This document shows, piece by piece, positions 31,029-32,539 of a DNA stretch of 64,000 nt. This stretch comes from Escherichia coli. Lineage in GTDB: Bacteria; Pseudomonadota; Gammaproteobacteria; Enterobacterales; Enterobacteriaceae. A model generated the notes under the pieces. The model was given only the letters and a program-made list of their open reading frames with translations, ran no database searches and had not been told where the DNA came from. Position 1 is the first letter of the stretch. Each line of letters begins with the position of its first letter. Location of the stretch: assembly GCF_044324875.1 (NCBI RefSeq), contig NZ_CP172185.1, one strand, 5' to 3'. A program made the translations under genes and the position numbers.

Positions 31029-31054
31029 AGGTTCTTTCAACCATCTGATACTGA

Positions 31055-31081
31055 AGATTTTTATGGCCGGATAAGGCGTTT
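31055..31081. repeat. REP-like palindrome half, split by IS insertion (other half at about 32514-32530)
   Basis: GGCCGGATAAGGCGTT on the left flank and GCGCTGTATCCGGCAC on the right flank of the IS would form an imperfect REP-type palindrome if joined. Confidence 0.35.
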
Positions 31082-31113
31082 TGAACTGAACCCCAAAACC
31101 TGGACAGTTTCAG

Positions 31114-31836
31114 TTAACCGGCTTTTTGATGCTCAGTCCGGTATTCTACCGGACTGAGTCCCCCAAGACTGAGTTTTATTCTTTTTTGATTCCAGTAAGT
31201 TATGTATTCGTTAACGGCATTTTCCAGCTCTTCTACATTTCTGTAGTCCCGGCGATAGTACATTTCTTCTTTCAGGTGACCAAAGAAGTTCTCCATTACC
31301 GCATTATCAAGGCAGTTGCCCTTGCGCGACATGCTCTGCACTAACCCTCTGTCCGCCAGGGCGGACTGATAACTTTTTATCCGGTAATGCCATCCTTGAT
31401 CACTGTGGAGCAGCGGTTTCTCCCCTTCAGCAAGGCTTTCCAGCCCCTTATTTAACATCCGCTTCACCAGCTCCTCTGTAGGCCTGCAGGCCGTTTCCCA
31501 CGCCACGATTTCCCCGTTAAACAAATCAAGTATCGGGGACAGGTACAGTTTTTGTCCGCCAGCCCTGAATTCGGTGATATCTGTCACCCATTTCTCACAG
31601 GGAGCTTCCGCTTTGAACTGCCGCTGAAGGATATTTTCTGCAGCGAGTCCCATATTTCCCCGGTAAGACCGGTATTTCTTCAGGCGCACAGGAGACTTCA
31701 GGCCGAGCTGTTGCATCAGTTTTCGCACCGTTTTGCCACTGAACTTAAGACCTCTTTTCTGAAGCTCACAATGGATCCGCCGGTACCCATAACATCCCCG
31801 GTGTTCATGGAAGATGGAGGCTATGAGCTGTTTCAC
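31114..31836 (-). CDS. IS3-family transposase OrfB (DDE catalytic domain)
   Basis: Integrase-core motifs (WVTDITEF, HSDQGWHY, MSRKGNCLDNAVMENFFG); the frame extends upstream without ATG toward the orfA end, consistent with frameshift-produced OrfAB. Confidence 0.78.
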   Translation of the reverse strand: MKQLIASIFHEHRGCYGYRRIHCELQKRGLKFSGKTVRKLMQQLGLKSPVRLKKYRSYRGNMGLAAENILQRQFKAEAPCEKWVTDITEFRAGGQKLYLSPILDLFNGEIVAWETACRPTEELVKRMLNKGLESLAEGEKPLLHSDQGWHYRIKSYQSALADRGLVQSMSRKGNCLDNAVMENFFGHLKEEMYYRRDYRNVEELENAVNEYITYWNQKRIKLSLGGLSPVEYRTEHQKAG

Positions 31837-31940
31837 ATCAGCATACTTGTCCTTAGCCTTCTGCAGTGACAGCTGGTAGTACAGCGTGCTTCTGGCCAGC
31901 CCTGCAGCCTTTAACAGGTCAGACTGGCAGTGTCCGCACC

Positions 31941-32471
31941 TCAGGCTCCGGATGACTTTCGTTTTTTCTCCAGCTCCTGGCGCTTTTTTTCCAGGAGATG
32001 CTCCTGCATGGCTTTCAGATATGCATTTTCTGCGCGAAGATAACGCAGCTCATTCTTCATCTCTTCCGGCGTCATGTTTGCCTCGTTTTCATGGGTATCA
32101 TCAGAACGGGTCATGCTTTTCTCCTTCCAGCGCCTGATAAAGGCCTCATTACCAGATTTGCGGTAGCCTTTTATCCAGTTTTTAACCGTGTTGTGGCTGG
32201 GAATGTTAAACCGGGCAGCTACCCGGGGTAGAGACTCAGAATGCCCGAGAGCATAAAGAACCACGCAAAGTTTATCTTCAGGAGAATAGCTACGCTTGTG
32301 TCTGCAATCCAGTGCCCGAGGACCGTGAAGAAGAAAAAGATTAATCCAGTGTGAGAGGCTGGTGTGAGAAAGTTGAAAGAGTTTTGCCGTAGAAATGATG
32401 CCTGCATGACCAGCCAGGTAGTGATTTACAGCGGCAAGTTTTACTTCAAATGAATGTTTCATAAACTGCAC
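31941..32471 (-). CDS. IS3-family transposase OrfA (HTH plus leucine-zipper helper)
   Basis: 176-aa ORF with HTH (LSHTSLSHWINLF) and C-terminal coiled coil; IS150-group OrfA-like. Confidence 0.8.
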   Translation of the reverse strand: MQFMKHSFEVKLAAVNHYLAGHAGIISTAKLFQLSHTSLSHWINLFLLHGPRALDCRHKRSYSPEDKLCVVLYALGHSESLPRVAARFNIPSHNTVKNWIKGYRKSGNEAFIRRWKEKSMTRSDDTHENEANMTPEEMKNELRYLRAENAYLKAMQEHLLEKKRQELEKKRKSSGA

Positions 32472-32539
32472 CTTCAGATGTCAGATTATGTCCAACATTT
32501 GGGGTGCAGTTCATTTGCGCTGTATCCGGCACAATTGTC

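What the first reader, a model, noticed from the sequence alone, without database searches (positions are those of the whole stretch)
31029..32539. IS150-like element inserted into a REP-like palindrome; ynjI absent between topB and gdhA
In K-12 the gene ynjI lies between topB and gdhA. Here the whole intergenic space is a 1432-bp IS3-family element flanked by the two halves of a REP-type palindrome and a TTT duplication. This suggests the lineage lacks ynjI at this site and that the IS targeted the REP structure, not an IS-mediated deletion of ynjI.
Basis: partly seen in the sequence, partly recalled or inferred. Interest (0 to 1): 0.4.

Follow-up and report, generated by a model that had tools for sequence, protein, structure and literature searches.

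The report
IS1397 inserted in a REP loop
The space between the E. coli genes topB and gdhA holds an intact copy of IS1397, an insertion sequence already known to jump into the loops of REP palindromes, in a common gene arrangement that never carried ynjI; this is ordinary.

Summary
Window 31082-32513 is a 1432-bp IS3-family element on the minus strand. It has 25-nt imperfect terminal inverted repeats, a TTT target duplication (31079-81 / 32514-16), and two half-palindromes on either side.

With the element and one TTT removed, a 76-bp topB-gdhA spacer remains. It contains a single Y-type REP hairpin. That spacer occurs uninterrupted in 1496 of 5426 complete E. coli genomes, and one of them matches 163/163.

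The element is IS1397, not IS150. It is 100% identical to copies that PGAP labels "IS1397 family", and it has no nucleotide similarity to K-12 IS150 (OrfB 51% aa identity). IS1397 is the textbook REP-loop-targeting IS. Five of six other loci I inspected show the same loop position, the same orientation and 3-4 bp duplications.

ynjI was not deleted by the IS:
- The window holds no ynjI remnant.
- The last ~150 nt of topB are only 68% identical to K-12 but 100% identical to an IS-free, ynjI-free genome.

The spot is an old polymorphism: ynjI in ~3500 genomes, empty REP in ~1500, an Hsp70/J-domain module in ~370. Only three other genomes carry IS1397 in this REP. Their duplication register differs (GTT), so the window's insertion is an independent hit. 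Known biology, low interest.

The parts
29073..31028 (+). topB (DNA topoisomerase III), intact. Its 3' end belongs to the ynjI-less haplotype.
   Evidence: ORF. Same 1956-nt length as PGAP topB in L006. The last ~150 nt are 100% identical to IS-free L006 and 68% identical to K-12.
31064..31078 (+). Left half of the split REP (Y-type palindromic unit): TGGCCGGATAAGGCG.
   Evidence: Complementary to 32518-32530 (I11). Forms the stem in the fold of the joined site. The same half-site flanks IS1397 copies at other loci.
31079..31081 (.). Target-site duplication TTT, left copy (REP loop bases).
   Evidence: Empty sites carry a single TTT.
31082..32513 (-). IS1397, complete, 1432 bp.
   Evidence: 1431/1431 identity to copies in 18 listed genomes whose CDS PGAP names 'IS3-like element IS1397 family transposase'. 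NCBIfam IS3 transposase, 385 bits.
31082..31106 (.). Right terminal inverted repeat (IRR, orfB end): TGAACTGAACCCCAAAACCTGGACA.
   Evidence: I1.
32489..32513 (.). Left terminal inverted repeat (IRL, orfA end).
   Evidence: I1.
31941..32462 (-). orfA (173 aa, HTH domains).
   Evidence: Translation. Pfam HTH_28 / HTH_Tnp_1.
31983..31989 (-). Slippery heptamer A AAA AAG for the -1 programmed frameshift.
   Evidence: Identical copies are annotated 'programmed frameshift'.
31114..32462 (-). OrfAB transposase (449 aa with the -1 shift), DDE/rve catalytic domain.
   Evidence: 449 aa, same span as the PGAP CDS of 1349 nt. Pfam rve 3.7e-21, HTH_21, rve_2.
32461..32514 (-). Hairpin pairing the IRL tip with the Shine-Dalgarno/AUG of orfA. 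It can form only in transcripts that enter from outside (gdhA read-through).
   Evidence: I14. RNA fold -32.7 kcal/mol, z = -4.8. The function is inferred.
32514..32516 (.). Target-site duplication TTT, right copy.
32517..32533 (+). Right half of the split REP: GCGCTGTATCCGGCACA.
   Evidence: I11.
32540..33883 (-). gdhA (NADP glutamate dehydrogenase), intact, convergent with topB and co-directional with the IS transposase.
   Evidence: annotation of syntenic loci.

Best explanation
An intact copy of the IS3-family insertion sequence IS1397 transposed into the apical loop of the single Y-type REP (palindromic unit) that sits between the convergent genes topB and gdhA. This happened in an E. coli lineage whose allele of that spot never contained ynjI.

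Shown: the insertion duplicated the three loop bases TTT and split the palindrome into two halves. Neither coding sequence was touched, and ynjI was not removed.

Inferred from the family: the OrfAB DDE transposase is made by a -1 frameshift at A AAA AAG. It recognises the REP and integrates an excised IS circle by copy-out/paste-in, in a fixed orientation, with the orfA end next to the GCCGGATG... half.

Inferred side effects: the REP hairpin at the shared 3' ends of topB and gdhA is lost, and the transposase gene now lies 26 bp downstream of gdhA on the same strand. Read-through transcripts would probably be kept untranslated by a hairpin that pairs the IS tip with the orfA ribosome-binding site.
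For: Identity: 100% over 1431 nt to copies annotated 'IS1397 family transposase'. IS3 transposase equivalog at 385 bits. Pfam rve, HTH_21 and HTH_28. Slippery A AAA AAG and a 449-aa fusion protein.

Simple insertion: 25-nt IRs, TTT on both sides. Empty sites with one TTT in four IS-free genomes. The joined 163-bp site is present in 1496 of 5426 genomes, once at 100% identity.

REP loop target: the hairpin has a TTTG loop (z = -4.9). It matches the recalled Y-type consensus at 30 of 34 positions.

Same behaviour elsewhere: copies at barA-gudD, ugpB-livF, plsC-parC, caiF-caiE and cysE-trmL all sit in the loop of GCCGGAT...ATCCGGC palindromes, with 3-4 bp duplications and the same orientation. 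In many other records listed, the match to an IS1397 end runs on into 24-32 nt of this flank.

Literature: IS1397 inserts specifically into E. coli REPs, and the transposase sets the specificity (PMC1525189; PMC3184786).

ynjI was not lost through the IS: no remnants. The topB tail is 68% identical to K-12 but 100% identical to IS-free L006. Haplotype counts: ynjI 3506, empty 1496, Hsp70/J 368.
Against: The ISfinder/GenBank type sequence of IS1397 was not available, so the name rests on PGAP's label for identical copies. The primary IS1397 papers could not be read here, so the loop position and 3-4 bp duplication as published properties are from my memory plus secondary citations. Transposition in this lineage is inferred from the footprint. 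The occupied allele could instead have arrived by homologous recombination from another strain. One of the six other loci (GN25, type VI secretion cluster) is not in a recognisable REP and has no duplication, so the specificity is not absolute. The regulatory consequences (REP loss, read-through, RBS-sequestering hairpin) are predictions only.
Confidence: 0.95

Rival explanations
1. The IS first inserted near ynjI in a K-12-like ancestor and then deleted ynjI by an IS-mediated adjacent deletion. The present structure would then be a deletion scar.
For: ynjI is present at this spot in about 64% of complete E. coli genomes. IS1397 can sit at a junction without a duplication next to a truncated gene, as at the GN25 type VI secretion locus.
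Against: The 3-bp duplication is perfect and the REP reconstructs exactly. The identical IS-free, ynjI-free site is in 1496 genomes. There are no ynjI remnants. The topB 3' end is a different old allele from K-12 (68% identity) and is identical to the IS-free empty haplotype. The K-12 REPs downstream of ynjI have different sequences.
Confidence: 0.01
2. The insertion did not happen in this strain's direct lineage. The whole occupied allele (topB tail, split REP, IS1397) was imported by homologous recombination from another E. coli.
For: The flanks are a mosaic. Identity to L006 is 100% over topB alignment positions 1-1350, falls to 95-96% over positions 1501-1800, and returns to 100% over the last ~160 nt. 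The 6-kb flanks are only 98.1% identical to the strain with the identical empty site. Recombination is common in E. coli.
Against: No donor was seen. None of 5426 complete genomes has this junction. The three occupied genomes have a different duplication register (GTT). This rival changes only where the transposition took place, not what the structure is.
Confidence: 0.08
3. The element is IS150 or a close IS150 variant, and its position between REP halves is coincidental.
For: The IR tips are similar (TGAACTGCACCC...GTTGGAC against TGTACTGCACCC...GTTGGAC). The size is similar (1432 against 1443 bp) and the orfA/orfB layout is the same.
Against: blastn finds no significant nucleotide similarity to K-12 IS150. 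OrfB is 51% and OrfA 27% identical in amino acids. Identical copies are named IS1397. REP-loop location recurs at 5 of 6 other loci in one orientation.
Confidence: 0.01

Closest known systems
IS1397 (IS3 family), the E. coli insertion sequence that targets palindromic units/REPs (Bachellier, Clement, Wilde, Hofnung and co-workers; cited in PMC1525189 and PMC3184786)
   Same: 100% nucleotide identity to copies annotated as IS1397. 1432 bp, two ORFs with an A AAA AAG frameshift, a DDE transposase, a 3-bp duplication, and insertion in the loop of a REP in a fixed orientation.
   Different: Nothing in the element itself. This REP (topB-gdhA) is rarely occupied: 3 of 5426 complete genomes, and those have a different duplication register.
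IS150 of E. coli K-12 (insJ/insK)
   Same: Same IS3-family layout, similar IR tips, OrfB 51% amino-acid identity.
   Different: No nucleotide similarity and OrfA only 27% identical. IS150 is not known as a REP-specific element (my own knowledge). In CFT073 one of two copies was REP-associated (PMC1525189, Table 1).
ISKpn1 (Klebsiella pneumoniae) and IS621 (IS110 family), other REP-targeting ISs
   Same: They use REP sequences as integration targets (PMC1525189; PMC3184786).
   Different: ISKpn1 prefers Klebsiella-type PUs. IS621 belongs to another family and inserts at the 3' side of the REP, outside the inverted repeat, not in the loop (PMC3184786). Neither sequence was compared here.
Y-type REP / palindromic unit of E. 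coli
   Same: The reconstructed target TGCCGGATACAGCGCAAACGCCTTATCCGGCCAT matches 30 of 34 positions of the consensus as I recall it. It also matches the REP halves that flank IS1397 at other loci. It is extragenic, between convergent genes, and forms a stable hairpin.
   Different: It is a single, slightly degenerate unit: ACA for GCG in the stem, and the tail is CAT rather than CTAC. It is not part of a multi-unit BIME such as the two REPs downstream of ynjI in K-12.

Membership tests
IS3 family | DDE (rve) transposase with N-terminal HTH domains | tested here: met
   Pfam rve 3.7e-21, rve_2, HTH_21, HTH_28. NCBIfam transpos_IS3 at 385 bits, cutoff 160.
IS3 family | Two overlapping ORFs fused by a -1 programmed frameshift at an A AAA AAG-type motif | tested here: met
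   orfA is 173 aa. The slippery A AAA AAG lies at 31983-31989 and the -1 frame stays open to 31114, giving 449 aa. Identical copies are annotated 'programmed frameshift'. The frameshifting itself was not assayed.
IS3 family | Imperfect terminal IRs ending 5'-TG...CA-3', and a 3-4 bp target duplication | tested here: met
   25-nt IRs, TGAACTG...CAGTTCA. TTT duplication.
IS3 family | Copy-out/paste-in transposition through a circular intermediate | not testable with these tools
   Needs an experiment, such as PCR for circle junctions.
IS1397 | Near-identity to the IS1397 type sequence | tested here: inconclusive
   1431/1431 identity to copies whose transposase PGAP names 'IS3-like element IS1397 family'.
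IS1397 | Insertion into the central loop of REP/palindromic units | tested here: met
   The window copy sits in the TTTG loop of the reconstructed hairpin. Five of six other loci do likewise. Specificity is published (PMC1525189; PMC3184786).
IS150 | Nucleotide identity to IS150 (K-12 insJK element) | tested here: not met
   No significant blastn alignment; OrfB 51% and OrfA 27% amino-acid identity.
REP / palindromic unit (Y type) | An imperfect GC-rich palindrome of about 35 nt matching the GCCGGATG...CTTATCCGGCCTAC consensus, extragenic | tested here: met
   30 of 34 positions match the consensus, which I recalled from memory. The hairpin has z = -4.9. It lies between two stop codons.
REP / palindromic unit (Y type) | Many copies dispersed in the genome | tested here: met
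   In many other records listed, matches run 24-32 nt from the IS end into this flank. That is possible only if the same half-REP flanks IS1397 at many other loci. The genome-wide REP count of this strain cannot be obtained from one window.

The most novel reading that the evidence does not exclude
The topB-gdhA REP is a recurrent IS1397 target, hit independently at least twice in the same orientation. In strain HH45 the IRR junction carries three extra bases: GGC-GTT-CAC-[IS]-GTT-TGCGC. That CAC matches the loop of a canonical Y-type REP. It could be the 3-bp spacer of an IS3-type circle junction carried over from the donor site, which would be a natural footprint of imprecise paste-in. Separately, the spot is an old multi-allelic locus (ynjI / empty REP / Hsp70 plus J-domain-Sel1 module) whose alleles each come with their own topB C-terminal tail. 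That could mean the tail of topoisomerase III co-varies functionally with the neighbouring cargo.
Probability: 0.15. Interest if true: 0.3.

Novelty: already known. Interest (0 to 1): 0.08.

Why it matters
It matters little beyond annotation. The element should be labelled IS1397, and the absence of ynjI should be recorded as a common allele (about 28% of complete E. coli genomes), not as damage caused by an IS. The case is a clean natural example of REP-loop targeting by IS1397. It also shows that the same REP can be hit more than once. The insertion removes a REP hairpin from the shared 3' ends of topB and gdhA, which might slightly change gdhA mRNA stability. That is untested.

Tried and rejected
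- I compared the element with K-12 IS150 to test the 'IS150-like' label. There is no nucleotide similarity, so IS150 is rejected as the name.
- I looked for ynjI remnants with sensitive blastn (word size 7) and tblastn against the whole window. Only chance hits came back, E >= 0.83.
- I tried to read the primary IS1397 papers (PMC94167, PMC169884, PMC95333, PMC135288). None is held, so published details come from secondary citations and from memory.
- A strict regular expression for further intact REPs in the window found none. The pattern was probably too narrow, and I did not pursue it.
- A PADLOC scan of the alternative Hsp70/J-domain cargo and of YnjI gave only marginal hits, so neither is a recognised defence system.
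- I ran no further search on the ancestral state of ynjI in other species. The cost was out of proportion to the interest.

Full report
**What is there.** topB ends at 31028 on the plus strand and gdhA ends at 32540 on the minus strand. The finding's coordinates are therefore exactly the spacer between two convergent genes.

The spacer contains a 1432-bp element at 31082-32513. Its terminal inverted repeats are 25 nt and 84% complementary, TGAACTG...CAGTTCA (I1). TTT lies immediately outside both ends, at 31079-81 and 32514-16. Next to each TTT is a half-palindrome: GCCGGATAAGGCG (31066-78) and CGCTGTATCCGGC (32518-30). These are complementary to each other (I11).

**Is the palindrome real?** Removing the element and one TTT leaves a 76-bp spacer. 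Its core folds into a hairpin with a 14-bp interrupted stem and a TTTG loop (DNA dG -12.8 kcal/mol, z = -4.9, none of 200 shuffles as good).

This reconstruction is not hypothetical. A 163-bp query spanning the joined site is found uninterrupted in 1496 of 5426 complete E. coli genomes, once at 163/163 identity in strain DETEC-S792. The four empty sites I read all have GGCG-TTT-GCGC with a single TTT. So the structure is a simple insertion with a 3-bp target duplication into the loop.

The reconstructed palindrome, TGCCGGATACAGCGCAAACGCCTTATCCGGCCAT, matches the Y-type palindromic-unit consensus at 30 of 34 positions.

**What the element is.**
- On the minus strand it encodes orfA (173 aa, start at 32462).
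- It carries a slippery A AAA AAG at 31983-31989.
- A -1 frame stays open to 31114, which gives a 449-aa fusion protein.
- The fusion protein has HTH_28, HTH_21 and rve domains. It scores 385 bits on the NCBIfam IS3 transposase model, cutoff 160.
- The DNA is 100% identical over 1431 nt to copies in 18 listed genomes, whose CDS PGAP names 'IS3-like element IS1397 family transposase' with a programmed frameshift.
- 1707 of 5426 genomes carry a copy covering at least 80% of the element.

Against K-12 IS150 there is no significant nucleotide alignment. OrfB is 51% and OrfA 27% identical in amino acids, and only the IR tips look alike. The element is therefore IS1397. 'IS150-like' is true only in the loose sense of a related subgroup.

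**How it works.** IS1397 is documented to insert specifically into E. coli REP sequences, and its transposase determines that specificity (PMC1525189; PMC3184786).

I checked this behaviour directly. I fetched eight further full-length copies (identical or 99.9% identical), which lie at six distinct loci. Five of those loci (barA-gudD, ugpB-livF, plsC-parC, caiF-caiE, cysE-trmL) place the element in the loop of a GCCGGAT...ATCCGGC palindrome. Their duplications are perfect and 3 or 4 bp long: GTTA, GTAA, CTTA, TGG, AAT. The orientation is always the same, with the orfA end next to the GCCGGATG half and the orfB end next to the CTTATCCGGCCTAC half.

The window copy follows the same rule. The sixth locus, in a type VI secretion cluster of strain GN25, has no recognisable REP and no duplication, and it abuts a truncated gene. 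The rule is therefore strong but not absolute.

The junction queries gave a second line of support. In many other records listed, the match to an IS1397 end runs on into 24-32 nt of the window's flank. That can happen only if the same half-REP flanks the element at those other loci.

The transposition chemistry (copy-out/paste-in through a circle) is inferred from the IS3 family and was not tested.

**ynjI.** K-12 has gdhA-ynjI-topB. The window has no ynjI remnant (best E = 0.83). Among complete E. coli genomes:
- ynjI is present in 3506.
- The empty REP spacer is present in 1496.
- A third allele, carrying an Hsp70-family gene and a J-domain/Sel1-repeat gene, with or without a further hypothetical gene, is present in 368.

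The alleles differ beyond their cargo. Over most of topB the window is 95-100% identical to K-12. Over the last ~150 nt identity falls to 68% against K-12 and 57% against the Hsp70 allele. Over the same stretch the window is 100% identical to the IS-free empty allele of strain CFIAFB20140388.

So the ynjI-less arrangement is an old allele, and the IS arrived later. An IS-mediated deletion of ynjI is excluded for practical purposes.

**How common is this particular insertion?** Only three complete genomes have IS1397 in this REP. They are HH45, 23AR0806 and AF22. The last two share an identical IS and junction, so they represent one event.

Their duplication register is GTT, not TTT:
- HH45: GGC-GTT-CAC-[IS]-GTT-TGCGC
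- 23AR0806: GGC-GTC-[IS]-GTT-TGCGC

 The window's insertion is therefore an independent hit one base away, in the same orientation. The extra CAC in HH45 is unexplained. It equals the loop bases of a canonical Y-type REP. It could be a retained circle-junction spacer, or a product of gene conversion from another copy.

**Consequences (inferred).** Neither gene is interrupted. The REP hairpin at the shared 3' ends is destroyed. The transposase gene lies 26 bp downstream of gdhA on the same strand.

A transcript entering from gdhA would fold the IS tip (GAACUGCACC) onto GGUGCAGUU. That would cover the Shine-Dalgarno sequence and the AUG of orfA (-32.7 kcal/mol, z = -4.8). This is a familiar way for insertion sequences to avoid activation by read-through.

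**Verdict.** The phenomenon is well known. The only corrections are the name (IS1397) and the context: ynjI absence is a common allele of a multi-allelic spot.

Noticed in passing
window 8040-10678: A second mobile element: an IS21-family IS (istA 8161-9807, istB 9581-10579; NCBIfam 284 and 257 bits). It is inserted inside yeaE relative to strain CFIAFB20140388, with a 5-bp duplication CGAAG at 8035-39 and 10679-83.
   Followed up: partly
window 40198-64000: Synteny with CFIAFB20140388 stops near the ynjB/ynjA boundary, and the remaining 23.8 kb has no counterpart there. This stretch encodes a small-GTPase-like protein (46459-47343), a trimeric-autotransporter-adhesin-like protein (56596-58197) and an IS66 transposase (62019-63557). 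It is probably a genomic island.
   Followed up: no
L002 2305-5945; L003 1435-5945 (topB-gdhA spot in strains 8600 and ZLWT): A third allele of the same spot, in 368 of 5426 genomes. It carries an Hsp70-family protein (566 aa) plus a 647-aa protein with a weak N-terminal J domain and seven Sel1 repeats, sometimes preceded by a 266-aa protein with no family hit. PADLOC gives no convincing defence-system hit.
   Followed up: partly
window 30880-31028 (topB 3' end) compared with L001, L002, L003: The last ~40 codons of topoisomerase III are allele-specific: 57-68% nucleotide identity between the ynjI, empty and Hsp70 alleles, against 95-100% in the rest of the gene. The lysine- and arginine-rich C-terminal tail therefore co-segregates with the neighbouring cargo.
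   Followed up: partly
L004 about 2573-2582 (HH45); L005 and L019 (23AR0806, AF22): IS1397 in the same REP has irregular junctions. HH45 has three extra bases, CAC, between the GTT duplication and the IRR end. 23AR0806 and AF22 have GTC/GTT, an imperfect duplication or a 3-bp deletion of the HH45 form.
   Followed up: partly
L010 1501-2932 (strain GN25, type VI secretion cluster): A 100% identical IS1397 copy that is not in a recognisable REP. It has no target duplication and overlaps the start of a DUF4123 gene. It is either an exception to REP targeting or an IS-associated deletion.
   Followed up: no
window 31132-31158: A perfect 12-bp inverted repeat with a 3-nt loop (CTCAGTCCGGTA ttc TACCGGACTGAG) inside the 3' end of the IS1397 orfB coding sequence, close to IRR (I9). 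Its function is unknown. It might block transcription entering from the topB side.
   Followed up: no
L001 3716-3831 (K-12, between ynjI and gdhA): The K-12 allele has two differently sequenced REPs downstream of ynjI (tgccgggggcgctgcgcttgcccggcctaca and tgtaggcctgataagcgtagcgccatcaggca). Every allele I read, apart from the Hsp70 one, ends in REP-type palindromes next to gdhA.
   Followed up: no
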